Of a stretch of 64,000 nt of DNA, positions 16,960 through 64,000 are shown one piece after another (positions within the stretch are counted from its first letter, which is position 1; each line of letters starts with the position of its first letter). The notes below the pieces were generated by a model. It did no database searches. It saw only the letters and a program-made list of their open reading frames with translations, and was not told where the DNA came from. Origin of the DNA: a virus (taxonomy: Duplodnaviria; Heunggongvirae; Uroviricota; Caudoviricetes); IMG/VR virus record IMGVR_UViG_2718218136_000001. One strand, given 5' to 3'. The position numbers were made by a program, and so were the translations under genes.

Positions 16960-18153
16960 GTGACCTGGGACGATCACAAGAAGAATTTTGCTCGCCTGGC
17001 GCGAGATGGTGGTTACACCATCGCACAATATGCCGCCGAGTTTAATCTCAACCCAAACACCGCACGTCGTTATCTCCGTGCATTCAAAGAAGACACCAGA
17101 ACAGCGGACAGCCGTAAGCCAAATAAGCCTGTCAGGAAACCACTAAAAAGCATGATCATTGATCACGCTAATGATCAACGTGCAGGTGATCACATTGTGG
17201 CTGAAGTGGCTGAAAAACAAAGAGTTAATGCTGTTGTCAGTGCCGCAGTCGAGAACGCTAAGCGCCAAAATAAGCGCATAAATGATCGTTCTGATGATCA
17301 TGACGTGATCACCCGCGCCCACCGTACCTTACGTGATCGCCTGGAACGCGACACCCTGGATGATGATGGTGAACGCTTTGAATTCGAAGCTGGCGATTAC
17401 CTGATAGATAACGTTGAAGCGCGGAAGGCCGCGCGCGCTATGTTGCGTCGGTCCGGGGCCGATGTTCTGGAAACCACTCTTCTGGAAAAGTCTCTTTCTC
17501 ATCTCCTTATGCTGGAGAACGCCAGGGATACGTGCATTCGCCTGGTGCAGGAAATGCGCGATCAGCAAAAAGACGATGATGAAGGTACTCCGCCTGAATA
17601 CCGTATCGCGAGCATGCTAAACAGCTGTTCCGCGCAGATAAGCAGCCTGATCAACACCATTTACAGCATCCGGAATAACTATCGAAAAGAAAGCCGGGAG
17701 GCGGAAAAGCACGCTTTATCTATGGGGCAAGCTGGCATTGTTAAGCTGGCATACGAACGAAAGCGTGAAAATAACTGGTCAGTGCTGGAAGCGGCTGAAT
17801 TCATCGAGGCGCATGGAGGAAAAGTGCCGCCCCTGATGCTGGAGCAAATCAAAGCCGATCTGCGTGCTCCTAAGACCAATACCGATGATGAGGAAAATCA
17901 AACAGCATCTGGCGCTCCATCACTTGAAGATCTGGATAAAATCGCGCGAGAACGGGCCGCCAGCCGCCGCGCTGATGCCGCATTGTGGATTGAGCATCGT
18001 AGAGAAGAAATTGCCGATATCGTCGATACAGGTGGTTATGGTGATGTCGATGCGGAAGGCATATCAAACGAAGCATGGCTTGAACAGGATCTGGACGAAG
18101 ACGAGGAGGAAGACGAAGAAGTTACCCGCAAACTGTACGGGGATGATGATTAA
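16960..18153 (+). CDS. pacA: Terminase small subunit PacA
   Basis: 397 aa, GTG start, [18 protein letters not shown]...; contains the pac hexamer cluster. Confidence 0.9.
17150..17315 (+). other. pac packaging site: two clusters of TGATCA/G hexamers (Dam GATC sites) inside pacA
   Basis: Four hexamers at 17153-17192 and three to four at 17283-17312, as in P1 pac. Confidence 0.8.
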
Positions 18154-19637
18154 TGGCCAGAAGTTGCGTAACGGACCCACGTTGGCGCGAGCTTGTGGCG
18201 CTATATCGTTATGACTGGATTGCGGCCGCTGATGTGTTGTTTGGGAAGACACCAACCTGGCAGCAGGATGAGATCATTGAGTCCACGCAGCAGGACGGCA
18301 GTTGGACAAGTGTGACCTCCGGCCATGGTACTGGTAAATCGGATATGACGAGTATCATTGCAATACTTTTCATCATGTTTTTCCCCGGCGCTCGCGTCAT
18401 TCTGGTCGCTAACAAAAGACAGCAAGTCCTTGATGGTATTTTCAAATACATAAAGAGCAATTGGGCTACTGCTGTTAGCAGATTCCCGTGGTTGTCGAAG
18501 TATTTCATTCTTACAGAAACGTCTTTTTTTGAGGTGACTGGCAAGGGTGTTTGGACAATATTGATAAAGTCCTGTCGCCCCGGAAATGAGGAGGCGTTGG
18601 CTGGTGAACACGCCGATCATCTCTTGTATATCATCGACGAAGCGTCGGGGGTGAGTGATAAAGCATTCAGTGTGATAACAGGTGCGCTGACCGGTAAGGA
18701 TAACCGTATTCTGCTTCTTTCCCAGCCTACGCGACCTTCAGGCTATTTCTACGATTCACACCACAGACTAGCTATTCGCCCGGGAAATCCTGATGGATTG
18801 TTTACTGCGATAATACTGAATAGTGAAGAATCTCCGCTTGTAGATGCAAAATTTATACGAGCAAAACTTGCGGAGTATGGCGGTCGTGATAACCCCATGT
18901 ACATGATCAAAGTACGTGGTGAATTTCCCAAATCTCAAGATGGCTTTCTTCTTGGTCGTGATGAGGTTGAGCGGGCGACGCGGCGAAAGGTCAAGATTGC
19001 CAAAGGATGGGGCTGGGTTGCATGTGTTGACGTTGCTGGTGGCACAGGACGAGATAAGTCCGTTATTAATATCATGATGGTGTCCGGCCAGCGAAATAAA
19101 CGCCGTGTAATCAACTATCGTATGCTGGAATACACAGACGTTACAGAAACGCAGTTAGCCGCCAAGATTTTCGCAGAATGTAACCCAGAACGGTTCCCGA
19201 ACATAACCATAGCTATTGATGGCGATGGCTTGGGGAAATCGACGGCTGATCTAATGTACGAACGCTATGGCATTACCGTCCAGCGTATCCGCTGGGGTAA
19301 AAAGATGCACAGCCGTGAAGATAAAAGCCTTTATTTCGATATGCGCGCTTTCGCGAATATTCAGGCGGCAGAAGCTGTAAAATCAGGGCGTATGAGGCTT
19401 GATAAGGGGGCTGCGACTATAGAGGAAGCATCAAAGATACCGGTAGGGATAAATTCCGCAGGTCAATGGAAGGTGATGTCAAAGGAAGATATGAAGAAAA
19501 AACTCAACCTGCACTCACCGGACCATTGGGATACATATTGTTTCGCTATGTTGGCGAACTATGTTCCCCAAGATGAAGTGCTTAGCGTCGAAGACGAAGC
19601 GCAGGTTGATGAAGCTCTGGCATGGCTTAACGAGTAA
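18153..19637 (+). CDS. pacB: Terminase large subunit PacB
   Basis: 494 aa; start overlaps pacA stop; ATPase-like GHGTGKS segment. Confidence 0.85.
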
Positions 19638-19640
19638 AAA

Positions 19641-19657
19641 CTTGCTCTAATAAATTG
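19641..19657 (+). promoter_or_regulatory. C1-operator-like site (cttgctctaataaattg) upstream of the icd-ant module
   Basis: 16/17 consensus match, 4 nt after the pacB stop. Confidence 0.55.
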
Positions 19658-19864
19658 TGTTTTTTGACTGCCGATGTTACATTGAACCTGACCTCTTGCG
19701 CCTTGAGGCATTTTCGGTTTATGCTTATCAGGCACCTCATTAAAACGGGTGCCGGGATTGAGACCCCGGATAATGTCAAAGGCGACACAGACGCCGAAAG
19801 CGTCTTTTTTTGTGTCATGCCATCGCACAGCCATACGTAGCGTTTAGCTCCGAAATCAATGGTA

Positions 19865-19955
19865 GTGCTGGCTGGGCTGCCGAAAGGCAGGCCGGTTCCC
19901 TTTGACGCCGGTAGTCTCAACCCAGTCAGTGCTACCGCCATTGAGATTGAGACCT
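19865..19955 (+). ncRNA. Candidate c4-like antisense RNA (immI repressor RNA)
   Basis: Hairpin gtctcaa...ttgagac (19914-19947) whose loop carries gctaccgc, complementary to gcggtagc at 19959-19966 just upstream of the icd RBS; direct repeat tagctcc at 19849 and 19963. Boundaries approximate. Confidence 0.35.
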
Positions 19956-19996
19956 CACGCGGTAGCTCCTTAACTTAGTCAAAGGAGGCTGCCATT

Positions 19997-20218
19997 ATGG
20001 CTACTGTCCCTACCCCAACTCATCCTGAATTCATCTGGCGCTTCTATTCCTGCCAGAAACGTCACTATCACTTCGTTATTGCACCGACAGAAGATGAGGC
20101 CCGTTCTCAGCTTCCTGACGCTCCCTGCATTTTCTCTGCCCGCTTTTCCACTGATTCGCGCAACTCTCTCAGTTACTGGTGCCTCCCTGTTAACGCTTCT
20201 GCTCAGGAGGGACTATGA
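19997..20218 (+). CDS. icd: Icd-like small protein (interference with cell division), translationally coupled to ant
   Basis: 73 aa; ATGA overlap with the ant start; paralog at 58961..59182. Confidence 0.6.
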   Translation: MATVPTPTHPEFIWRFYSCQKRHYHFVIAPTEDEARSQLPDAPCIFSARFSTDSRNSLSYWCLPVNASAQEGL

Positions 20219-21330
20219 GAACGTCATTAGTCACCCGTGAAGAAATGATTGAGGCAATTGAACAGCACACATCCTGTATCAGTACCAGGGATATACCGGG
20301 CGTTATTGCCAACTACTTCATGATCACCAAACAACTTTACCGGAGAAAGGACAAGAACGCTGTTCACCGCATTCTGTTGTCTGATATCCGCGAATACCTG
20401 CTCGAACAGGGGCATCTGAATTACGCAACCGTCGCAGCCGAAACACGCAAGGAGGCACACAGAATGAAAGCAACTAACGTTAAATCAGAAAAAACTCATG
20501 CACCTTCAGTTCAGGAATCGGAGCTGGTGGTTGTTCAGAATCAGTCTGATGAAATTCCCGTTCTGGAATGGCTGGGAGTGCGTGTAGTGACAACTAAGAT
20601 CCTTGCTAAGGGGTATGGGACAGATGCGGATAACATCAAGAAGAACTTTTCCCGTAATGCTGAACGTTTTTGTGAAGGCAAGCATTTCTATAAAGTTATT
20701 GGAGATGATTTGAACAATTTGCGGGTGACTTTAAGTAACTCACAAAATCCTATCTCTCCTAAAGCCCGCTCACTCATCCTCTGGACGGAACGCGGCGCAG
20801 CCCGCCACGCTAAAATGATCGAAACCGATCAGGCATGGGCATTCTTTGAAAAACTGGAAGACAGCTACTTCCGACAAAAAGAACAGCAACCGATCGCAAT
20901 CCCCCAGACGCTTCCAGAAGCTCTGCGCCTTGCTGCCGAACTGGCTGAACAAAAGCAACTTCTGGAACAGAAAGCCCATCAGCTAAATCAGCAGCTGGTG
21001 GCCGCAGCCCCCAAAGTCGATTTTGCCGACCGGGTATCAGTGGCTAAGGGGATCCTGATTGGGAATTTTGCAAAGGTCGTTGGACTTAAACAAAATGCGC
21101 TGTTTGCCTGGTTACGGGAGAACGGCATTCTGATAGCGTCCGGCGGCCGTAAAAATGTACCGTTCCAGCAGTACATAAACGCCGGATATTTCACAGTGAA
21201 AGAAGTGGTGCTGGATGATGAAGAGGGCTACCAGATACGGCTGACGCCCCAATTAACGGGGAAAGGCCAACAGTGGTTGACGCGTAAACTGCTCGATGCT
21301 GGCTTGTTAAAACCGGTGGCGGCTGAATAA
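20215..21330 (+). CDS. ant: Antirepressor Ant (N-terminal domain plus C-terminal antirepressor domain)
   Basis: 371 aa; C-terminal QQYINAGYFTVKEV...GKGQQWL block shared with the kilA-like gene and with the disrupted copy at 59179-60211. Confidence 0.7.
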   Translation: MRTSLVTREEMIEAIEQHTSCISTRDIPGVIANYFMITKQLYRRKDKNAVHRILLSDIREYLLEQGHLNYATVAAETRKEAHRMKATNVKSEKTHAPSVQESELVVVQNQSDEIPVLEWLGVRVVTTKILAKGYGTDADNIKKNFSRNAERFCEGKHFYKVIGDDLNNLRVTLSNSQNPISPKARSLILWTERGAARHAKMIETDQAWAFFEKLEDSYFRQKEQQPIAIPQTLPEALRLAAELAEQKQLLEQKAHQLNQQLVAAAPKVDFADRVSVAKGILIGNFAKVVGLKQNALFAWLRENGILIASGGRKNVPFQQYINAGYFTVKEVVLDDEEGYQIRLTPQLTGKGQQWLTRKLLDAGLLKPVAAE

Positions 21331-21362
21331 TGGAAGAATGCCCGGTTGATGCCGGGCATAAT

Positions 21363-22214
21363 TTATTGCGCGCTTTCGGGGTTGTCGTTTACTGGCTGCC
21401 CCTTCTTGGTTTTACGGCTGCGCGTAACTGATGCGGCTGACTTAACCTTTTTCTCTTCGCGAGTGATGGCAATTTGTTTTTTTACATTTTCAATATCTGC
21501 CAGGCGATATATTTTTGCTTGCGGCCAGCGGTCGCAGATGATCGGTTCTATGGAGTCATAAAGGCTAAATTTTGCTTTTTCGAATTCACCGTTGATGATG
21601 ATTCCATCACGGAGAGTTTCATCGCAGATAAACACGCCACACAGCGGTACATGGTAACTAACTGATTTACCATCATTGTAGTTAGGGCTACTGGAGATGT
21701 AGTGGACGCGCAGCATTGTTTCGCTAAAGCCGTGTACACGCATACGGAATTTTTCATCCTCCGGGTACTGCCTCATTAGCTCTTTTGTTGCTTCCAGGTT
21801 CTCTATGTATTTCGCACTGTGCTCATTGATCCCCGCGCTTTTTTGGATGCGAATGTCCTTATCAATCAGATGAATAATGCGGCCAGCGGTCATGTTGACG
21901 CTGTTCACAGCTTCTGTCTGATAAGTTGTAACCTTGCGCACACCGCGAAGGATGTTAGGCACTGGATATAAAATAGTCTTTGGGATATTGAGGTCTGGGT
22001 ACTGTTCCAGTTCCCGCGCCATTAAAGTCCATTTATCAATTTCAGCCTGAATGCTGTCCGTTTCTTTGAACGGTAGAACGACAACCGGGCGTACAGGACG
22101 ACCGTCGCTGGCGGTATCAACGTGTTGGGCGCGTGCAACAGCTTTTTTTAGAAAGAGATCCCTGAAGCTGACGAACTCCTGGTACAGTTGTTCGCCGTAG
22201 ACATAATTTATCAT
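21363..22214 (-). CDS. c1: C1 repressor of lysogeny
   Basis: 283 aa beginning MINYVYGEQLYQEFVSFRDL, matching P1 C1 as I recall it. Confidence 0.95.
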   Translation of the reverse strand: MINYVYGEQLYQEFVSFRDLFLKKAVARAQHVDTASDGRPVRPVVVLPFKETDSIQAEIDKWTLMARELEQYPDLNIPKTILYPVPNILRGVRKVTTYQTEAVNSVNMTAGRIIHLIDKDIRIQKSAGINEHSAKYIENLEATKELMRQYPEDEKFRMRVHGFSETMLRVHYISSSPNYNDGKSVSYHVPLCGVFICDETLRDGIIINGEFEKAKFSLYDSIEPIICDRWPQAKIYRLADIENVKKQIAITREEKKVKSAASVTRSRKTKKGQPVNDNPESAQ

Positions 22215-22308
22215 TGATCCTCCTCCAGAATTGACATGGTCAATAACGCCCGGCTGAGAAAACCGGTCATTACTGACCTATATTATAGAGGGATCAAACA
22301 AAAATAAT

Positions 22309-31500: not shown

Positions 31501-34500
31501 CAGGTCCATGTCAGTACATACGCGGTCCATATCCCTGATTATTGAGAAGATCGGACGGGCTTTCTCGTGCTCAATCACGCCGTCTTCATTGACCGAGGTC
31601 GTTACGCCATTGTTGGCTTTGGCCGCCGCTTCCGCCTGCTGACGCAATTCTTCATACGCCGCCAGTTGTTCTTCAGTAAGTGGTGCATCCTGCTGGTGTT
31701 CGTCCAGCTCCGGGATCTCCACGGTATCCTTAACGTCTTCCGCCGTTTTAAGCGTTACCCAGCGATGGAATATACCGCGCAGCGCATCAAGGTTTTCAAA
31801 GCCCACCAGCGCCATTTTTTCTTCAACTTCACCGCTAATTTTCTGTACCGTTTCCAGCCTGGTCTTGCCGAAGAATTTAACGAAGTCATCAGGACCGTAG
31901 ATCCCCATGTTCTGCCAGTATTCCTTCGGCAGAACATGAGAAAGCATGTTGTATGCATCGATCGGGGTGTTAACGACTGGCGTTGCAGTCAGGAGAACCG
32001 GCCCGCGCCCGCCATTCTTTTTCATCAGGTACGCGTTTTTAATTGCCATATCTCGCGCCGATTGCGCCACCGCGCTGGTGGGCAGATAGGCCAGTTGTGA
32101 CGCTTCGCGACCATTTTTATAGCTATTGCGGTAGTTGTGACCTTCGTCAGCGATCACACTATCGAAGCCCATATCCTCAAAGTACGGATACTTCTCTGCT
32201 TTTTCGGTGCCGGTATCTGAATACTCCGACAATACCCGGCGACGCGCGGCCTCTTTGCGGTGGGAGTCGGAGTCCATTGCGCTGGCTACGCGTCCGGCGG
32301 CAACGAAGTCATAAAGCATATCCTGTGCATGCTCATCTACGGTGTCATCACGTAGCGGAATGCGGGCGTATTGTTCTTTGGTAAACACGACTGCACGGTA
32401 ATTTGAGTGCGGGATCGCGTTCATCCGCGCCGTGATAGTGGCTTCATCTGCCAGCTTAAGAGCATCGCGCATAACTGGAGTGCCATCAGTACCAAGAACA
32501 GGTTTACCGTTCTCATCGAGCACCGGCACCTGGCGAATCTGATCACCATCCATCAGCACATCAAGACCGACGAACAGGTAGTTACTGAATGCCTCTTCAC
32601 TCAGGAATTCTTTTGCTTCGTAATACCAGTTTTCCAGCACTGATTTAGGCACTACATACGCAGTACGGGTGGAGCGACCGTTCTCATAGTTGAACGCCTC
32701 AAGCGCCAGCGCGGTCGTGGTTTTACCCAGCCCGGTGCCGAAGCCCAGGATGCCGCGCCCATCTTCGGACAGTCGGCGCACCTCGCTATTCTGGTAATCA
32801 AATGGCTGGCGCTTACCGCTTAATCCCTTCAACCCAAGCGGATCGCCAGAGTGTTCATACGGGATATTGCTATTGAACACATCGTTGTATTTGGCAACCA
32901 GCTCATCGTAGCGATCGTGCGTCTTGATCCACTTATTGAACTGGTCCTCAAGCAGTGCCATCTGCTCGCGGTAGCCGTTCGCCGTCGCGCTATCTTTGCC
33001 ACCGATACGCGCACCATTGAGATACTTTTCCAGCTGTGCCGGGAACCCGGTCGCGTTTTCACCTGATTTACGGTCCCACTCGTAGCGGATCTCGCCTGTT
33101 TCTTTATCCTTGCGCTGGACGACACCGTATCGGTGCCCGACGAACAGACCATCACCACCGTGATAGGTGTCAGAAACCATTTCGTCGCCTTCCAGCTGCA
33201 CTGACTGCACATAGCGCAGATCCGGATAGCCGTTTTCCTGCAAAAACTCCAGAATGACGGAACGGTCGAACCAACGGCTATTGAGCTTAAACCGGATATT
33301 CTCTGCTGGCGTCTTGATGCGCTTCTCTTCGATCGCTGCCAGCTGATTAAGGACGTTGTTCTTTACTGGACCGTCGGGGAGCGTGGCGAGGAATTCCTGT
33401 TTTGGAGCCACTATCTCGTTAATGTCGCCGCTGGTGGCGCGGGCGAACGGAACAATCCCGCCATACGGTGAAACCGCAATACCAGGAGTGCTGGCCAATA
33501 AATTAAGCAACTCTTCATCACTGGCTGGCAATTCGCCGGTAAACGCAAGGCGGAAATCATCGAGCTGGATTGGATCGCGGGTAAGATCGCTATAGAGATA
33601 ACGCAGGGTGTCCTGATAGCTGGTGGAGTCATAACTGGCGCTGGAATCATGCGTAACCAGCTTTCCTGTCAGCTCGTCAGAAATAGTGCCATCCAGCTTA
33701 ATTGCACCACGGAAAGCAAACCAGGCGCGCGCACCGCTTCCCGATAATTTAGCTATCGGACCGCGACCAGGGTTACCAAAACGGTCAATCTCTGCCTGCA
33801 AACGGGATACCAGAGAAAGGCGCTGCTGTTCGATTTGTTCAGCACTATGCCCGGCGGCCTTCATATCCTGATATTCAATTAACATCCGGCCAATCATCGC
33901 CCCACGATACAAGCGTTCACGGTATTTTTCAGGCTGGCTGTTAATCCAGTCCACCAGCGGCACCATATCGTCGCTGATTGATGTGGTGTACTTATCGCGG
34001 ACATTTGCCATCTGGGTAAATGTCATACCGAGACGGCCTTCTGTTGTAGTCAGGTTACGCTGAAGAGCCTCCCAGCTATCCGCGCCATAACTGGCAGCAT
34101 CAATTTTAAGTTCCTTCCCGGCATCAGCTTCAATCCAGCGACCACCAGCATATTTTTGCCATACGCCATTAATCAGGCGCATTTCCCCTTCACCAACAAC
34201 GTCTGCGGTCAGTGACGGTTCAGCCATATCGAGCAAAGACCAGTCGATACGGCTTTCGAAACGATGAATCAGCTTCGCTTTAAGAGCCTGGTTATCAATC
34301 TGACCGTCGGCACGAACCTCAATACGCCCCTGGAAGCCCTTTTCCTGGGTGCCATGAACAAACCGGCGGCCATCCTTTTCAAACCACTTGCCAGAAATAA
34401 ACGTTGGCCAAAGCACATTTGCTGATTCAAGAGTGCTTTCATCCACCAGGGAGATTTTCTCAGCCATCTCTGCCGGATGTTTGCGCATCAGCACCACATC

Positions 34501-58350: not shown

Positions 58351-58630
58351 CCCAGAAAAACAAAAACCGGCGAGAAGTTACCACGAGAACGGAAAGTAAA
58401 CAAGAATACTCCCATTGACTTATATCAAATAATCAACTTTTTATAAGCTATCCCTAACTTATTGTGTATAGCTGAAAAGTCAGAGATAAGTTCACCATCT
58501 GCATTATTTCTTAAGTTAATAGTTTATTGCTAACTTAATTTATGTATCGACTATTGATATCCATCTTAAAGTAACAATATCCCTCTGCATTATTTTCATC
58601 ACAAATAATACATCTATTGCACTACGCTCA

Positions 58631-58647
58631 CCTGCTCTAATAAATTT
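58631..58647 (+). promoter_or_regulatory. C1-operator-like site upstream of the second c4-icd-ant region
   Basis: cctgctctaataaattt. Confidence 0.5.
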
Positions 58648-58839
58648 GTATTTTTAAGTCGCGAATGCTATCTTTTCGCATCATATTGACCTTTTAATCG
58701 TTCAGGCTTATAGTTTCGCCGTCGTAGCAAATTCTGCGACCAGGTTTGACAGCCTGAATGATTGTGCGGACAACCGCAGATTTCCGATATTGCGGTATTT
58801 TGTGTCCGTTAAACCGCGTTACGCCCAAATTATGGTGGG

Positions 58840-58955
58840 GCGTGATGGGGAGGCTTCGGCCTGCTGGTTTCACAATCGCCAGTCTGTCAACCCTGTCACG
58901 TCCTGCCACCTGTTTGACAGCGGGTAGCAGGTTGTTAAACCTGATTGTGAGGCCG
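58840..58955 (+). ncRNA. Candidate second c4-like RNA region
   Basis: Hairpin tctgtcaa...ttgacag positionally analogous to the one at 19914-19947; boundaries approximate. Confidence 0.25.
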
Positions 58956-58960
58956 TAACT

Positions 58961-59182
58961 ATGGTTAATGCCAATCCTTGCGCACGCCCAGAATTCATCT
59001 GGCGTTTCTATTCCTGTAAAAAACACCACTATCACTTCGTTATCGCAGCAACTGAAGACGAAGCACGCTCTCAATTGCCTGATGGCCCCTGCATTTTTAC
59101 TGCCCGTTTTTCAACTAACTCGCGCAATTCACTTAGTTACTGGAGCCTCCCCTTCTCTGCCGACGTTCAGGGGGGTTTATGA
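58961..59182 (+). CDS. Icd-like protein, second copy
   Basis: 73 aa, about 70 percent identical to the 19997..20218 product. Confidence 0.55.
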   Translation: MVNANPCARPEFIWRFYSCKKHHYHFVIAATEDEARSQLPDGPCIFTARFSTNSRNSLSYWSLPFSADVQGGL

Positions 59183-60211
59183 AAACACCTCTCGTCACCC
59201 GTAATGAAATAGCCGAAGCGATCGCCCTGCATACTGCCTGTATGCCGACACGGGAGATCCCCGGCGCAATTGCTAACTATTTCATGATAACCAGACGTTT
59301 TTATACCCGAACAGATAAGGCTGTGATCAACAGGCTACTGATAGCCGAGATCAGGGATTATTTGATTGAACAAGGACGTCTACGTTACGCAACAGTGGCA
59401 GCAGAAATGAGAAAGGAGGCACATAGAATGACCGGTAATAATTTAAATGTTGAAAAACCAGCACCTGTTGCTTCAGCTACGCCAGCACCAGCCCTGAATG
59501 TCATCCCCAACACCGGAGACACAATCGACAGCCAAACATTGTTGAAGATGGTCAATGAGGCACGGAAATTATGTAGCGAAAAACCAGTTCGCAACAATGA
59601 TTTCATTGCCAGAGTTAAGGATGAGCTTGAAGGAGAAACCTACGAAATTTTCGTAGGTCAAAAAAACGGCGCAGTAATAGATATTATAACCATGACCTAC
59701 AAACAAGCCCTGCGAGTTGCCGCGCGCGAGTCAAAAGCGGTCCGCCGTTCGCTGATCGACAAACTGGAAGAATTGCAGCAGGCAAACTCCCCTACCCCAT
59801 CGATCCCCAAACATTACCAGAAGCTCTACGCCTGGCTGCCGAGTTGGCAGAACAGAAAATGCAGTTGGAACAACAGCTGGTGGCCGCAGCCCCTAAAGTC
59901 GATTTTGCCGACCGGGTATCAGCGGCTAATGGAATCCTGATCGGGGACTTGCAAAGGTCGTTGGACTTAAGCAAAACGCCCTTTTCTCATGGTTGCGCCA
60001 GAACGGCATTCTCATGGCTTTTGGTGCGCGCAAAAACGTACCGCGCCAGCAGTACATTAACGCCGGGTATTTCACGGTGAAAGAAGTGGTGCTGGATGAT
60101 GAAAATGGCTACCAGATACGGCTGACGCCCCAATTAACGGGTAAAGGCCAGCAGTGGTTAACTAGCAAGCTACTTGATGCTGGTTTGTTAAAACCAGTAG
60201 CAATAGGTTAA
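59179..60211 (+). pseudogene. Antirepressor ant, second copy, interrupted by two frameshifts (about 59800 and 59955)
   Basis: Homology to the intact Ant continues across three frames (ORFs 59179..59940, 59844..60080, 59993..60211). Confidence 0.6.
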
Positions 60212-60288
60212 CAAAAGAAAAAACCTGCCAGCTAACTGGCAGGTTTCTGAGCAGATCGACCAACCCGATCTGGATCGAGTTAGAAAAA

Positions 60289-60305
60289 TTTGCTCTAATA
60301 AATTT
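60289..60305 (+). promoter_or_regulatory. C1 operator, near-perfect consensus (tttgctctaataaattt), upstream of the kilA-like gene
   Basis: 16/17 match. Confidence 0.65.
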
Positions 60306-60373
60306 CGTTTCTAAGTGCAAAGAATCACCATTTCGAGCTGGTGATTGAAGGTTGATGCAAATTTGGAGAAAAA

Positions 60374-61172
60374 ATGCAACAAACATTCAATGCGGATATG
60401 AATATATCAAACCTTCATCAAAATGTCGATCCTTCAACCACCCTGCCTGTTATTTGTGGTGTTGAAATTACGACCGACCGCGCTGGCCGTTATAACCTTA
60501 ATGCTCTACACAGAGCGAGCGGACTCGGTGCCCATAAAGCGCCAGCTCAATGGCTAAGAACGCTGTCAGCCAAACAGCTCATCGAAGAGCTTGAAAAAGA
60601 AACTATGCAGAATTGCATAGTTTCGTTCGAAGGCCGTGGCGGCGGCACTTTTGCCCATGAATGCTCGCAGTGGAGTACGCTGGTTGGATTCTCCCGCGTT
60701 TCGGCTGAAGGTAAACCAGACATTTATCGACTATCGAGCTGGAAGATTACAACCTGCTATTCCGAAGAGCCTCCCAGAAGCTCTCCGTTTGGCTGCTGAC
60801 CTGGCAGAGCAAAAGCAACGGCTGGAGCAAAAAATGCTGATGGATGCACCTAAAGTCGAATTCGCCGAACGCGTTGCTACCGCCAGCGGGGTTCTAATCG
60901 GCAACTATGCCAAAGTGCTCGGCCTGGGCCAAAACTATCTCTTCACCTGGTTGCGTGATAACGGAATTCTGATCGCAACCGGTGAACGCAGAAACGTCCC
61001 CAAACAAGAATACATATCCCGTGGGTATTTCACCCTTAAAGAAACCGTGATCGATACAAGCAATGGAAGCAGGATTTCTTTCACGACTCGTATAACCGGC
61101 AAAGGTCAGCAGTGGCTGATGAAGCGATTGCTTGATGCTGGTGTGCTGGTACCTGTCGCGGCAACGCGCTAA
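60374..61172 (+). pseudogene. KilA-N domain antirepressor-like gene split by a frameshift near 60660
   Basis: N-terminal KilA-N/Bro-N-like ORF 60374..60799 and C-terminal ORF 60636..61172 carrying the shared Ant C-terminal domain; combined length about 266 codons. Confidence 0.55.
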
Positions 61173-61201
61173 CAGACGTAGTAAGAACCACCAGCATTGT
61201 A

Positions 61202-61636
61202 ATGCTGGCTAAAGTCACTTTCCTGAGCTGTATAACGATGAGCGATTTTACTTTTTCTGGCTATGAATTGGCCTGCTTTGTAACACACTCCGGTCTATCC
61301 CGTAGCGCCGGGCATATCCTGTCGCAATGTGCAAATCTCGCGGCAACAACCAGTGAATACTTCATTCACAAGCCTCACCGCCTGATCGCGGCAGAAACTG
61401 GTTATAGCCAATCAACCGTCGTTCGTGCATTCCGTGAAGCTGTAAACAAAGGAATTCTGTCTGTAGAGATTGTTATCGGCGATCACCGTGAACGTCGCGC
61501 TAACCTGTACCGGTTTACACCATCCTTTTTGGCCTTCGCACAACAAGCCAAAAATGCGCTGATTGAAAGCAAATTAAAGATCTCTTCAGCGGCAACCAAG
61601 GTTAAGCTGTTCTCGCTAAGACATTGGCTTATTTAA
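61202..61636 (+). CDS. HTH-containing protein at the repL position (possible short or truncated RepL-like lytic replication initiator)
   Basis: 144 aa; winged-helix-like AETGYSQSTVVRAFREAVNKGIL; synteny after kilA. Confidence 0.3.
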   Translation: MLAKVTFLSCITMSDFTFSGYELACFVTHSGLSRSAGHILSQCANLAATTSEYFIHKPHRLIAAETGYSQSTVVRAFREAVNKGILSVEIVIGDHRERRANLYRFTPSFLAFAQQAKNALIESKLKISSAATKVKLFSLRHWLI

Positions 61637-62040
61637 TTTTTATCCACACCCCCATGTCAAAATGATACCCCCTCCCCCTGTCAGGATGACGTGGCAATAA
61701 AGAATAAGAAGTCACAAGTTAAAAAACAAAAAGATCAGTTTCCGGCGGTGCCGGAACGACCAGACTCAAAAAATGACTTCATGGATCGCTGAGGCAAAAG
61801 CAAAGGCTGACAATCTGCGGTTATCCAAAAAACGCGCTCAAAAACATGAGTTCAAGCAGAAAGTAGAGGCGGCAGCGCGGAAATATGCTTACCTGAAGGA
61901 CAAGGCGTCTCCTGATATTGCGGGATATCAAACTTCGATAATCTGCCGCATTGCATGACGGTAAACGAAGCTCTTAATGCGGTTTAGCCAAAAAAAGATA
62001 ACGAACAATGGGGTATACCGGCAGATTCAGAGGGTGATAG

Positions 62041-62057
62041 ATTGCTCTAATCTGGAG
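62041..62057 (+). promoter_or_regulatory. C1-operator-like site (attgctctaatctggag)
   Basis: 11/17 with a perfect left half. Confidence 0.35.
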
Positions 62058-62500
62058 TCACTGGCGTTTTCAGTTTGAGTCGGAGATGCAATTGATTTTT
62101 TACAGTTAGCGATCGCTTTGCAGGATATGTTTGTATTGGCTTCTGTGTATACATGATAGCCGAAAAATGCTTGTCGATATCGACCGCAAAGAACAAGCAG
62201 GAGATTCTAGTATGGATTTTCTTTGGCGCGGTCTGGCCATTAGGATCATGTTTGCTGCAACATTTCTTCTGATGTGGATATTCACCCTTCCAGGTGATTC
62301 TATAGAAAAAAAGCCAGACATTGATACAATCGTTGCGGTGCTTGAGGCTATCTGCTTCAGGCATTACCCGAAAAGCAGATAGAAGAAGCCCCAGTAACAT
62401 TACGCGTCCTGCAAGACGCTTAACATTAATCTGAGCATATCTATGCTTAGCATACGTAGATTAGCCTCTTACCGACCAAAAGGTCAAGGAGAAGCAGGCT

Positions 62501-62646
62501 ATGAAGCAGCAAAAAGCGATGTAATCGCTCTGATCGTCATCTGTTTAACCGTCATTGTGACGGCACTGGTAACGAGAAAGACCTCTGCGAGTACGAATCC
62601 GAACGGCCAACGGAGTCACTGTCTTCACAGCCTACCGAATCTGAAA
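62501..62646 (+). pseudogene. Degenerate hok/gef-family membrane toxin gene (at least three frameshifts)
   Basis: MKQQKAM (frame 2), VIALIVICLTVIVTALVTRK (frame 1), DLCE (frame 0) and VRIRTANGVTVFTAY (frame 2) together resemble HokC/Gef MKQHKAMIVALIVICITAVVAALVTRKDLCEVHIRTGQTEVAVFTAYESE. Confidence 0.5.
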
Positions 62647-63906
62647 GTAAGAACCTGCGGGAGAGATCCCTGCACTCTTCGTGTGTCAGGTATCTCAATG
62701 CACCCTTTCCTCTCCAAATAAAAAAGCTCCCGAAGGAGCTTTAAAATACAAGGGATGACTCTTAAGCCCACTCATCCAGTTGTAGACGATACGAAGTGAC
62801 GGGCGCACAGCGGCAGTCACATCTTCGTACTAAAGTCGATTGCATCACTGTAGATTTTGCAGTCCAACATTTCAATTTGTAGCAGCTTTTGTCACAGCGT
62901 TACCCGGAAGATTTGATTCAGGGTCGCAGCCATCGTGATATCAACATAGTCCTTCGCCGCAATGCGATCTTAATGAACTGAAGAATATCGCCTTCGATAG
63001 TCTCCACCACTGGACCTGGATTTCCCCAGAGTTTCGAATTGGACCGTGCTGGTTGAACTTCACACCATTCGGACCATAGTCCTCCACATCCTCGCGGTCA
63101 TTCAGGAATTTGCGACGTGCGAACCAGTACGCTGATATCTTCATGCTGCAAAAGTGAGCTGGAATTCAGAAGATACCAGTCGTTCGCCTTTGGCCGCGTT
63201 GCAGTATAGCGGCCTTAATAAATTTACGGTTTCCTTAGTGTTATTGTCCCCATATAAAATCTTTTACTGAACGCCCGACATATCGGAGCTGTTATATCGA
63301 AGAACCGGTCAACTGGAGTTGCGGTGTTTTCAGGAAATGCCCATTGGTCCCTGGCGCATCGAGATCGAAACTTATGTCTGGATAGCGACATCAATGATGT
63401 TGATCCGCGACCAATGTTTAGCGTCACACGCTCCGGGATTCGACCACCAATACTGGCATCTTTAAGTTCCGGGCTAATCATCGCTGACAATGCGGCGATA
63501 GCTCCTGAAACCTCCGTGAATGGTCAAACAAAGCGATGAAAGTTACTGGCAGCGTGAAAGTCGGCGGTGTTCCCCCCTCCCAAACCATTAAGCTGTTCAA
63601 CGGGCCACCGACGTTGTTTCAGTACCAACCTGCGCAAAACCACTGAAAGCACCAGCAACAGACCCCATGGACATACCGGTAAACGGCGCTTCCCAATTCT
63701 GGGCCATGTTCATTGCTGCCCCCTGGCTGATATCCGGTAACCTGGTACTGAGAGTTCGTTAAAGTAACTTTCAGAAATGGCGATACACCGTCAGCCTGGC
63801 TGTAAACCCCATAAGGAATAGGTGCCATTCAAGTTAAAGGCCGGAGTTCTCCGGCCTCCTCCTTTAGCCAAGGCGCTTACGGCGCAGTTTCATTGACTTT
63901 TTGCGG

Positions 63907-64000
63907 AATGTAAATATTGTCATGAACTATATCCGTAACCTGGATAGTGAAACAGGGGCAATGGTGCGCCTGCTGGAAGATGGCGATTAGCCATTAACGC
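63907..64000 (+). repeat. Duplicate of the cre 3' end and downstream flank (identical to 24316-24409), cut by the window edge
   Basis: 94 bp identical, including the codons for NVNIVMNYIRNLDSETGAMVRLLEDGD-stop. Confidence 0.85.

What the first reader, a model, noticed from the sequence alone, without database searches (positions are those of the whole stretch)
19641..21330. An intact c4/icd/ant-type immunity-I module lies between pacB and c1
Between the pacB stop and c1 I read an operator, a candidate antisense-RNA region, a 73-aa icd-like gene and a 371-aa antirepressor gene coupled by ATGA. As I recall P1, immI (c4-icd-ant) sits next to sim/kilA-repL, not beside immC, and pacB is followed directly by c1. 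The copy at the canonical location (58.7-60.2 kb) is frameshifted. The element may therefore have relocated or replaced its antirepressor control, which would change its heteroimmunity behaviour.
Basis: partly seen in the sequence, partly recalled or inferred. Interest (0 to 1): 0.6.

Follow-up and report, generated by a model that had tools for sequence, protein, structure and literature searches.

The report
Second antisense-gated antirepressor module in P1-like plasmid
This P1-like phage-plasmid carries an extra, complete copy of the small-RNA-controlled "antirepressor" switch between its packaging gene and its main repressor gene, but this insertion is common and already recorded in relatives, it adds to the usual copy rather than replacing it, and the apparent damage to the usual copy is most likely a sequencing artefact.

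Summary
Between the pacB stop (19637) and the c1 stop (21363) lie 1,725 bp where P1 and P7 have 24 bp. This stretch holds:
- a C1-operator-like site;
- an IsrK-type leader carrying the a1/b1 sites and a terminator;
- a C4 antisense RNA (Rfam 75 bits);
- a2/b2 sites over the icd ribosome-binding site;
- a 73-aa icd gene overlapping (ATGA) a 371-aa ant gene.

The interpretation does not hold.
- **Not new:** the same insertion sits in the same slot in phage RCS47, in about 300 PLSDB plasmids and in about 40 IMG/VR contigs. Venturini et al. 2019 recorded it.
- **Not a replacement:** relatives such as pET6.1-IncY keep both modules intact.
- **The frameshift is probably an artefact:** the canonical ant frameshifts are two of about 80 one-base deletions, many in short same-base runs. 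They begin at 58.6 kb and become denser towards the window end. Restoring two bases gives a full 344-aa Ant.

What I add:
- The second C4 has recognition sites unrelated to those of the canonical C4, so the two should not cross-react.
- Its sites exist as 2 x 2 alleles, with a1/a'/a2 and b1/b'/b2 matching in 72 of 73 loci.
- Its leader belongs to the IsrK family studied in Salmonella prophage Gifsy-1.

The module is therefore an additional, probably independent immunity specificity. No function has been tested.

The parts
19641..19657 (+). C1-operator-like site (CTTGCTCTAATAAATTG), the counterpart of P1 Op51/Oc4. By eye it overlaps a P51a-like promoter: TTGTGT at 19656-19661, 16-nt spacer, TACATT at 19678-19683.
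   Evidence: 2 mismatches to the operator consensus; 16 sites in the window against 0.36 expected; this stretch aligns with the P1 Op51/P51 region. The promoter is my own reading; the consensus scan found none. C1 binding is not tested.
19697..19727 (+). Candidate promoter of the leader RNA: TTGCGC, 18-nt spacer, TATGCT, placing the start near 19732. Phage D6 has TTGCGC, 18-nt spacer, TATATT at the homologous position.
   Evidence: Read from the sequences. It is below the threshold of the scan, so it is an inference.
19732..19810 (+). IsrK-type leader RNA. It carries a1 (TTGAGAC, 19758-19764, in a hairpin loop) and b1 (GTCAAAGG, 19775-19782), and ends in an intrinsic terminator (stem 19789-19805 followed by T7).
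   Evidence: RF01394, 60.2 bits against a gathering score of 50; terminator; site coordinates; a1 and b1 covary with a' and b'.
19855..19942 (+). C4-family antisense RNA. b' (CCTTTGAC, 19899-19906) lies in the loop of the second hairpin. a' (GTCTCAA, 19914-19920) lies in the single-stranded junction.
   Evidence: RF01695, 75.4 bits, full-length match; the minimum-free-energy fold (-46.5 kcal/mol) leaves a' unpaired but pairs four bases of b' inside the second hairpin, so b' lies fully in a loop only in the Rfam consensus structure.
19947..19988 (+). mRNA target sites: a2 (TTGAGAC, 19947-19953) and b2 (GTCAAAGG, 19978-19985). b2 overlaps the icd Shine-Dalgarno sequence AAGGAGG (19982-19988).
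   Evidence: Cognate duplexes are -9 to -13 kcal/mol, against -5 to -8 for the canonical module's sites; covariation.
19997..20218 (+). icd-like gene (73 aa).
   Evidence: 80% identical to P1 Icd over the 66 aligned residues. NF033153, 49.8 bits against a cut-off of 25.
20215..21330 (+). ant gene (371 aa), overlapping icd by ATGA. Its parts are an Ant1-type N-terminus (about aa 1-85), an ORF6N domain (aa 117-201, absent from P1 Ant) and a KilAC domain (aa 259-360). An internal Ant2-like start at ATG 20464 follows the AAGGAGG at 20449-20455.
21338..21359 (.). GC-rich inverted repeat between the ant stop and the c1 stop. It is a likely terminator for the converging ant and c1 transcripts.
   Evidence: (9 pairs, 6 G-C), reported for the + strand only. 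Termination of the c1 transcript on the other strand, and function in general, are inferred.
58631..60211 (+). Canonical immI module: operator 58631-58647; a1/b1 motif 58708-58760; C4 58828-58913 with a P1-type a site (TTGACAG) and a P7-type b site (GATTGTG); icd 58961-59182; ant split into 59179-59940 and 59993-60211 by two one-base deletions.

Best explanation
The 1.7-kb stretch is a second, complete immI-type antirepressor cassette, inserted in the 24-bp pacB-c1 gap of a P1-like phage-plasmid. It is the RCS47-type arrangement.

**Predicted working, by analogy**
- Transcription starts at a C1-operated promoter and/or at a leader promoter.
- Most transcripts stop at the leader terminator. This gives a roughly 79-nt IsrK-type RNA that carries a1 and b1.
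- Read-through transcripts yield the C4 RNA.
- The exposed a' and b' of C4 pair with a2 and b2 on the mRNA.
- b2 covers the icd ribosome-binding site, so icd is not translated. ant is coupled to icd by the ATGA overlap, so ant stays off in the lysogen.
- The leader's a1/b1 compete for the same a'/b' surfaces, so an excess of leader RNA should relieve repression.
- When Ant is made, it is expected to inactivate the C1 repressor, which here differs from P1 C1.100 at only 3 residues.

**Consequence**
The recognition sites of this C4 (a = TTGAGAC, b = GTCAAAGG) are unrelated to those of the canonical C4 in the same window (a = TTGACAG, b = GATTGTG). The two modules should therefore be orthogonal, and the element should have two independent immunity keys.

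**Canonical copy**
It is most likely intact in the real molecule. Its frameshifts are sequence-quality artefacts.

**Shown here:** the anatomy, the family matches, the complementarity, the covariation, the distribution among relatives and the artefact pattern.

**Inferred:** the promoters, RNA processing, repression by C4, relief by the leader, and the Ant-C1 interaction.
For: - **Anatomy and family matches:**
- **Insertion relative to P1 and P7:**
- **Same module in the same slot:** RCS47, pET6.1-IncY, 301 plasmids at 80% coverage or more, and about 40 of 71 IMG/VR loci.
- **Literature record of the insertion:** PMC6906374.
- **The RNA circuit is under selection:** in 73 instances of this C4 subtype, a1/a'/a2 and b1/b'/b2 change together. 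There are two alleles at each site and all four combinations occur (25, 19, 18 and 10 instances). There is one exception, L049, at a1. All four combinations also occur inside the pacB-c1 slot. Covariation of this kind distinguishes P1 from P7 and the other P1-type immI alleles (74 of 74 parsed loci).
- **Orthogonality:** cognate site duplexes are -9 to -13 kcal/mol and non-cognate ones -5 to -8.
- **Role of the leader:** in Gifsy-1, IsrK is followed by a C4 RNA. The pairs validated there by compensatory mutation, G28-C162 and G31-C159 (PMC4825925), fall exactly on a1:a'. In that system, short IsrK supplied in trans raised translation of the downstream antirepressor more than 100-fold.
- **Both modules coexist intact in relatives:**
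- **Artefact pattern of the canonical frameshifts:**
Against: - No expression or binding data exist for this module.
- The consensus promoter scan found no promoter upstream of the leader or of C4.
- An intrinsic terminator lies between the leader and C4, so C4 synthesis needs read-through or an unrecognised promoter.
- The middle third of Ant is an ORF6N domain that P1 Ant lacks. It varies from 64 to 100% identity among otherwise near-identical P1-like loci, so its target need not be C1.
- The artefact reading of the canonical frameshifts rests on pattern alone. I have no reads.
Confidence: 0.68

Rival explanations
1. One reading: the canonical immI has decayed by frameshift and the pacB-c1 module has taken over antirepressor control, so immI has been relocated or replaced.
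For: In the window as given, the canonical ant is split into two frames. Four of the 30 best plasmid hits show only one ant-like place in the record, so some relatives may lack a canonical ant.
Against: - The two ant frameshifts are part of about 80 one-base deletions, nearly all losses from the window. They also hit intergenic DNA, kilA, repL and the hok/sok region, with density rising towards the window end.
- Repairing two bases restores a 344-aa Ant that is 342/344 identical to a relative's.
- pET6.1-IncY has the identical second module and an intact canonical module.
- At least 11 IMG/VR contigs carry both.
Confidence: 0.07
2. The module is regulated as proposed, but its Ant does not act on P1 C1. 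Its variable ORF6N middle domain would aim it at repressors of other resident prophages or at another host or phage target, making it a tool of inter-phage conflict rather than a second immI.
For: - The ORF6N domain is absent from P1 Ant1/Ant2.
- It varies from 64 to 100% identity among pacB-c1 loci, while the N- and C-terminal parts stay at 94-100%.
- The same isrK-C4 leader drives unrelated Rha/Ant-type proteins in D6, phiP27 and many Stx phages.
Against: - The N-terminal 85 aa and the C-terminal 120 aa are clearly P1-Ant-like, and the internal Ant2 start is kept.
- A C1-operator-like site sits at the module's 5' end.
- The module sits directly beside c1 in every P1-like locus where both flanks are held.
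Confidence: 0.2
3. The module is an inert hitch-hiking remnant of a recombination with a D6-like or lambdoid phage and has no current function.
For: No functional data exist. No consensus promoter was found.
Against: - Both ORFs are intact and coupled.
- The full-length C4 and leader score well above the Rfam thresholds.
- Three-way compensatory covariation at two sites holds in 72 of 73 instances.
- The module is kept in hundreds of plasmids.
Confidence: 0.05

Closest known systems
immI (c4-icd-ant1/2) of phages P1 and P7
   Same: - Same order of parts: C1 operator, a1/b1 leader with a terminator-like hairpin, C4 RNA, a2/b2 with b2 on the icd ribosome-binding site, a 73-aa icd, and an ATGA-coupled ant with an internal Ant2 start.
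- Icd is 80% identical to P1's over the 66 aligned residues. The Ant N- and C-terminal parts are P1-like.
- Specificity is set by short a and b sites that covary three ways.
   Different: - It lies between pacB and c1, not beside sim and kilA-repL.
- The leader and C4 share no detectable nucleotide similarity with P1's and have unrelated a and b sites.
- The leader is of the IsrK type (RF01394).
- The middle of Ant is an ORF6N domain.
- It is present in addition to the canonical immI.
The pacB-c1 'ant' insertion of phage RCS47 (NC_042128) and plasmid pTZ20_1P (Venturini et al. 2019, PMC6906374)
   Same: It is the same insertion in the same slot. It is 97.9% identical to RCS47 and 100% identical to pET6.1-IncY over 1,725 bp.
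   Different: Nothing structural. The published note and the RCS47 annotation name only ant (plus 'two short hypothetical orfs'). They do not mention the C4 RNA, the leader or the specificity alleles.
immI-like module of phage D6 (NC_050154)
   Same: The leader, C4 and the start of icd are 94% identical to the window's. The a allele is the same.
   Different: - The b allele differs by two bases, with compensating changes in b1, b' and b2.
- There is no C1 operator upstream.
- The downstream antirepressor is of the Rha/Roi type.
- The neighbouring genes are different.
isrK-orf45-anrP locus of Salmonella prophage Gifsy-1 (Hershko-Shalev et al. 2016, PMC4825925)
   Same: An IsrK-family leader with a terminator is followed by a C4-family RNA and an antirepressor gene. 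The experimentally validated leader-downstream helix is the a1:a' pairing.
   Different: - Gifsy-1 has no icd. b2 lies on the anrP ribosome-binding site, and the C4 region was read as a translated 45-codon ORF.
- The a and b sequences are different.
- The antirepressor there switches on antQ rather than acting on a P1 C1.

Membership tests
P1/P7-type immI module (c4-icd-ant) | A C4-family antisense RNA encoded upstream of icd on the same strand | tested here: met
   RF01695, 75.4 bits against a gathering score of 45, full-length, at 19855-19942
P1/P7-type immI module (c4-icd-ant) | C4 a' and b' complementary to a2 and b2 on the mRNA, with b2 overlapping the icd ribosome-binding site | tested here: met
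   a' is GTCTCAA and a2 is TTGAGAC. b' is CCTTTGAC and b2 is GTCAAAGG, which overlaps AAGGAGG 9 nt before the ATG. The pairs covary across 73 loci.
P1/P7-type immI module (c4-icd-ant) | A second copy of the target sites (a1, b1) upstream of c4 | tested here: met
   a1 at 19758-19764 and b1 at 19775-19782, inside the IsrK-type leader. They covary with a' and b' in 72 of 73 instances.
P1/P7-type immI module (c4-icd-ant) | An icd ORF translationally coupled to ant | tested here: met
   The 73-aa ORF matches NF033153 and is 80% identical to P1 Icd over the 66 aligned residues. The ATGA overlap lies at 20215-20218.
P1/P7-type immI module (c4-icd-ant) | An Ant1/Ant2-type antirepressor (KilAC C-terminus, internal in-frame second start) | tested here: inconclusive
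   It is 54% identical to P1 Ant1. KilAC is present, and the internal ATG at 20464 has a strong Shine-Dalgarno sequence. However, aa 117-201 form an ORF6N domain that P1 Ant lacks.
P1/P7-type immI module (c4-icd-ant) | A C1-controlled operator at the module's promoter | tested here: inconclusive
   A 17-mer with 2 mismatches to the consensus lies at 19641-19657 and aligns with the Op51 region. The promoter hexamers are weak. C1 binding is not testable here.
P1/P7-type immI module (c4-icd-ant) | Ant binds and inactivates the C1 repressor; C4 represses ant in trans | not testable with these tools
   This needs reporter fusions, pull-downs and superinfection assays.
P1/P7-type immI module (c4-icd-ant) | Canonical map position beside sim and kilA-repL | tested here: not met
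   It lies between pacB and c1. This feature defines the locus, not the mechanism.
IsrK (RF01394) leader RNA | Match to the covariance model at or above the gathering score, ending in an intrinsic terminator | tested here: met
   60.2 bits against 50, model positions 1-77. Terminator at 19789-19805 followed by T7.
IsrK (RF01394) leader RNA | The middle hairpin of the leader pairs with a downstream segment of the same transcript (helix b-I of Gifsy-1) | tested here: met
   The Gifsy-1 pairs G28-C162 and G31-C159 map to a1:a'. The window has the equivalent a1 and a' with perfect 7-nt complementarity.
IsrK (RF01394) leader RNA | The short RNA activates translation of the downstream antirepressor in trans; Hfq binding | not testable with these tools
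   Shown only for Gifsy-1 (PMC4825925).

The most novel reading that the evidence does not exclude
P1-like phage-plasmids may run a combinatorial immunity code built from two orthogonal antisense-RNA locks.
- **Canonical immI:** at least two a alleles and four b alleles, freely recombined.
- **Optional pacB-c1 module:** 2 x 2 alleles.
- **Leader RNA:** in each module the terminated leader RNA (a1/b1, the IsrK type) would act as an anti-antisense decoy that sets the threshold for antirepressor release.

A phage with a second lock that the resident lysogen cannot close would escape that lysogen's immunity. This would explain why the extra module is so common. The published Gifsy-1 'orf45' mechanism would then be a special case of the same C4 circuit.
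Probability: 0.35. Interest if true: 0.5.

Novelty: new member of a known kind. Interest (0 to 1): 0.3.

Why it matters
P1-like phage-plasmids are frequent carriers of resistance genes in E. coli and Salmonella. Whether two of them can share a cell, exclude each other or induce each other depends on their immunity systems.

- If the second module works as predicted, roughly four in ten P1-like plasmids in PLSDB have an extra immunity specificity that P1/P7-based models ignore.
- That would affect predictions of phage-plasmid incompatibility, superinfection and spread.
- The practical lesson for this window is narrower. The insertion is a known, common feature. The "dead" canonical copy should not be interpreted biologically until the sequence quality of the last 5 kb has been checked.

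Tried and rejected
- **Promoter scan:** the consensus scan of 19500-21500 found no promoter upstream of the leader or of C4. The promoters I list were read by eye and by homology with P1 and D6, and remain inferences.
- **Real pseudogene:** I considered that the canonical ant is truly dead. I rejected this because of the deletion-only pattern that spreads across all features and thickens towards the window end, and because a two-base repair restores the protein.
- **Source record:** I considered that the window is pET6.1-IncY itself. The module is 100% identical, but the canonical region is only 97.2% identical and carries a different C4 allele, so it is a relative and not the source.
- **Prior literature:** searches for a description of a second C4 or immI in P1-like elements found only the one-sentence note in PMC6906374. 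The library does not cover most subscription journals, for example the original RCS47 and D6 papers, so earlier discussion cannot be excluded.
- **'ash family protein':** NCBIfam gave no hit for the 39-aa ORF that PGAP names 'ash family protein' and that lies over the C4 gene. I treat it as a doubtful gene call.
- **Failed scripts:** my first regular-expression parsers for the a and b sites failed. I replaced them with alignment-based or corrected patterns. In one search, 43 of 117 canonical loci stayed unparsed.
- **Not used:** structure prediction and large protein searches, because family assignment was already clear.
Full report
**What is there**

The window is a P1-like phage-plasmid. The relevant genes are pacA (16960-18153), pacB (18153-19637), c1 (21363-22214, minus strand), coi and cre. 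C1 differs from P1 C1.100 at three residues.

In P1 NC_005856 the pacB stop and the c1 stop are 24 bp apart, with no annotated feature between them. P7 and most named P1 isolates are the same. In the window that gap is 1,725 bp (19638-21362).

**Anatomy of the insert**

From 5' to 3':
- **Operator.** A 17-mer, CTTGCTCTAATAAATTG, lies at 19641-19657. It has two mismatches to the C1 operator consensus. The window holds 16 such sites with up to 3 mismatches, against 0.36 expected. This stretch aligns loosely with the P1 Op51/P51 region.
- **Leader.** An IsrK-family RNA lies at 19732-19810 (RF01394, 60.2 bits against 50). It ends in an intrinsic terminator.
- **C4.** A full-length C4 antisense RNA lies at 19855-19942 (RF01695, 75.4 bits against 45, E = 6.6e-13).
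- **icd.** A 73-aa ORF (19997-20218) is 80% identical to P1 Icd over the 66 aligned residues and matches NF033153.
- **ant.** A 371-aa ORF (20215-21330) overlaps icd by ATGA. It has an Ant1-like N-terminus, an ORF6N domain (aa 117-201) that P1 Ant lacks, and a KilAC domain. An internal ATG at 20464, behind an AAGGAGG, matches the position of the P1 Ant2 start.
- **Terminator.** A GC-rich inverted repeat (21338-21359) separates the converging ant and c1 genes.

**The RNA circuit**

In P1, the exposed a' and b' segments of C4 pair with a2 and b2 on the mRNA. b2 lies on the icd ribosome-binding site, and copies a1 and b1 lie upstream (annotation).

The new module has the same logic with unrelated sequences:
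- a' is GTCTCAA (19914-19920). It matches a1 at 19758-19764 and a2 at 19947-19953, both TTGAGAC.
- b' is CCTTTGAC (19899-19906). It matches b1 at 19775-19782 and b2 at 19978-19985, both GTCAAAGG.
- b2 overlaps the Shine-Dalgarno sequence AAGGAGG.
- a1 and b1 lie inside the IsrK-type leader.

I collected 71 IMG/VR loci that share the first C4 hairpin and aligned them:
- Each site has two alleles: a is TTGAGAC or TTGGAAC, and b is GTCAAAGG or GCAAAAGG.
- In 72 of 73 instances the three copies of each site change together.
- All four combinations occur (25, 19, 18 and 10 instances). The window has the rarest.
- The single exception, L049, departs only at a1.

Covariation of the same kind distinguishes P1 from P7. 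It is strong evidence that leader, C4 and mRNA sites interact.

**Orthogonality**

The canonical C4 in the same window uses a = TTGACAG and b = GATTGTG. Predicted site duplexes are -9 to -13 kcal/mol for cognate pairs and -5 to -8 for cross pairs. The two modules should not cross-regulate. This is a prediction from sequence, not a measurement.

**Link to IsrK**

The leader family was studied in Salmonella prophage Gifsy-1. There, short IsrK supplied in trans raised translation of the downstream antirepressor anrP more than 100-fold. A helix between IsrK and "orf45" was proven by the compensatory pairs G28-C162 and G31-C159 (PMC4825925).

- In Gifsy-1, Rfam places a C4 RNA at nt 103-186 of the isrK transcript, inside orf45.
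- The nucleotide numbering of the paper maps exactly onto this sequence. The two validated pairs are a1 (UUGGCGU, 26-32) with a' (ACGCCAA, 158-164).
- The isrK-C4 tandem also precedes Rha/Ant-type genes in D6, phiP27 and many Stx phages, and a few records annotate both RNAs.

This gives experimental backing, in a relative, for one step of the proposed mechanism: the leader competing for the C4 surfaces.

**Distribution and prior knowledge**

- The insert is 97.9% identical to phage RCS47 and 100% identical to plasmid pET6.1-IncY, in the same slot in both.
- It is found at 80% coverage or more in 301 PLSDB plasmids. By comparison, 455 records hold most of the canonical immI-kilA-repL region, out of about 785 that match it.
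- About 40 of the 71 IMG/VR loci have PacB upstream. Wherever the locus extends far enough, C1 lies downstream. All four allele pairs occur in this slot.
- Venturini et al. [quoted passage not shown] RCS47)" (PMC6906374).

The insertion itself is therefore already on record. I found no paper describing its C4 RNA, its leader or its alleles. The searchable library omits most subscription journals.

**Origin**

The module looks like a mosaic:
- Nucleotide similarity to P1 immI is limited to icd plus the ant 5' part (71%) and the ant 3' part (81%).
- The leader-C4 part is 94% identical to D6.
- The ORF6N middle varies from 64 to 100% identity among otherwise near-identical loci.

**The canonical copy**

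The canonical module is present:
- a1/b1 motif at 58708-58760;
- C4 at 58828-58913;
- icd at 58961-59182;
- ant split into 59179-59940 and 59993-60211.

Against P1 and against the closest plasmid (NZ_CP010146, 98.9%), the window shows about 80 one-base deletions from 58,593 to the end.
- Nearly all are losses from the window, and many lie in short same-base runs.
- Their density rises towards 64 kb.
- They also hit intergenic DNA, kilA, repL and the hok/sok region.
- Over the aligned stretch 53.5-58.59 kb the only indels are one compensating pair at its very start (53,559-53,564). The comparison of 14.6-25 kb with pET6.1-IncY shows only two.
- Long stop-free frames cover 0.83, 0.68 and 0.21 of the last three 2-kb bins. 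Most earlier bins are at 0.7-1.0.
- Restoring one C and one T gives a 344-aa Ant that is 342/344 identical to the relative's.
- pET6.1-IncY carries the identical second module and also intact canonical icd, ant, kilA and repL.

I conclude that the frameshifts are most likely errors near a contig end, and that the second module adds to the first rather than replacing it.

**Verdict**

- The relocation or replacement interpretation is not supported.
- The heteroimmunity suggestion is plausible and now has a concrete basis: an orthogonal, allelic C4 lock. It remains untested.
- The module is a member of the C4/icd/ant kind, in a documented and common location.
- Interest is modest, at 0.3. The most interesting open point is whether two orthogonal locks, each allelic, form a combinatorial immunity code among P1-like phage-plasmids.

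Noticed in passing
window 58593-64000: About 80 one-base deletions relative to NZ_CP010146. Nearly all are losses from the window, many lie in short same-base runs, and they become denser towards the window end. They break ant, kilA, repL and the hok/sok region, and long stop-free frames cover only 0.21 of 62-64 kb. This looks like low-quality sequence at a contig end.
   Followed up: yes
window 58828-58913; loci L081-L160: The canonical C4 combines the P1 a site (TTGACAG) with the P7 b site (GATTGTG). Among 74 parsed P1-type immI loci from IMG/VR, two a alleles and three b alleles occur in all six combinations, and a1/a'/a2 and b1/b'/b2 match in all 74. pET6.1-IncY has a fourth b' (CGTAAGT). 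Specificity of the canonical immI is therefore combinatorial, not just P1 versus P7.
   Followed up: partly
L079 (Gifsy-1 NC_010392) 34072-34316, minus strand: The 'orf45' of the published isrK-orf45-anrP locus contains a C4-family RNA (RF01695, 69 bits, nt 103-186 of the transcript). The paper's compensatory pairs G28-C162 and G31-C159 are the a1:a' pairing of the C4 system. The paper does not mention C4 or P1.
   Followed up: yes
window 19859-19978 (+): PGAP annotates a 39-aa 'ash family protein' CDS here in pET6.1-IncY and many other plasmids. It lies on top of the C4 RNA gene and gave no NCBIfam hit, so it is probably a spurious protein call.
   Followed up: partly
window 20530-20890 (Ant aa 105-225); loci L013-L077: The ORF6N middle part of the 371-aa Ant ranges from 64 to 100% identity among P1-like pacB-c1 loci, while its N- and C-terminal parts stay at 94-100%. 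This suggests domain swapping or diversifying selection.
   Followed up: no
L049 (IMGVR_UViG_2778261639_000014): This is the only locus in which a1 (TTGAGAC type) does not match a' and a2 (TTGGAAC type). It also carries a divergent icd and ant behind pacB.
   Followed up: no
window 62336-62506 (+): A sok antitoxin RNA (RF01794, 81 bits) of a hok/sok system lies downstream of repL, inside the error-rich stretch.
   Followed up: no
phage phi456 OR339795.1 70652-71983: This P1-like phage matches only window 20968-22299, that is the 3' part of the second ant plus c1. It may therefore hold a truncated copy of the module next to c1.
   Followed up: no
L059 (IMGVR_UViG_2713896909_000009): Besides the pacB-c1 module, a second Ant-N/Ant-C match lies about 5 kb downstream on the opposite strand. 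It could be a rearrangement or a misassembly.
   Followed up: no
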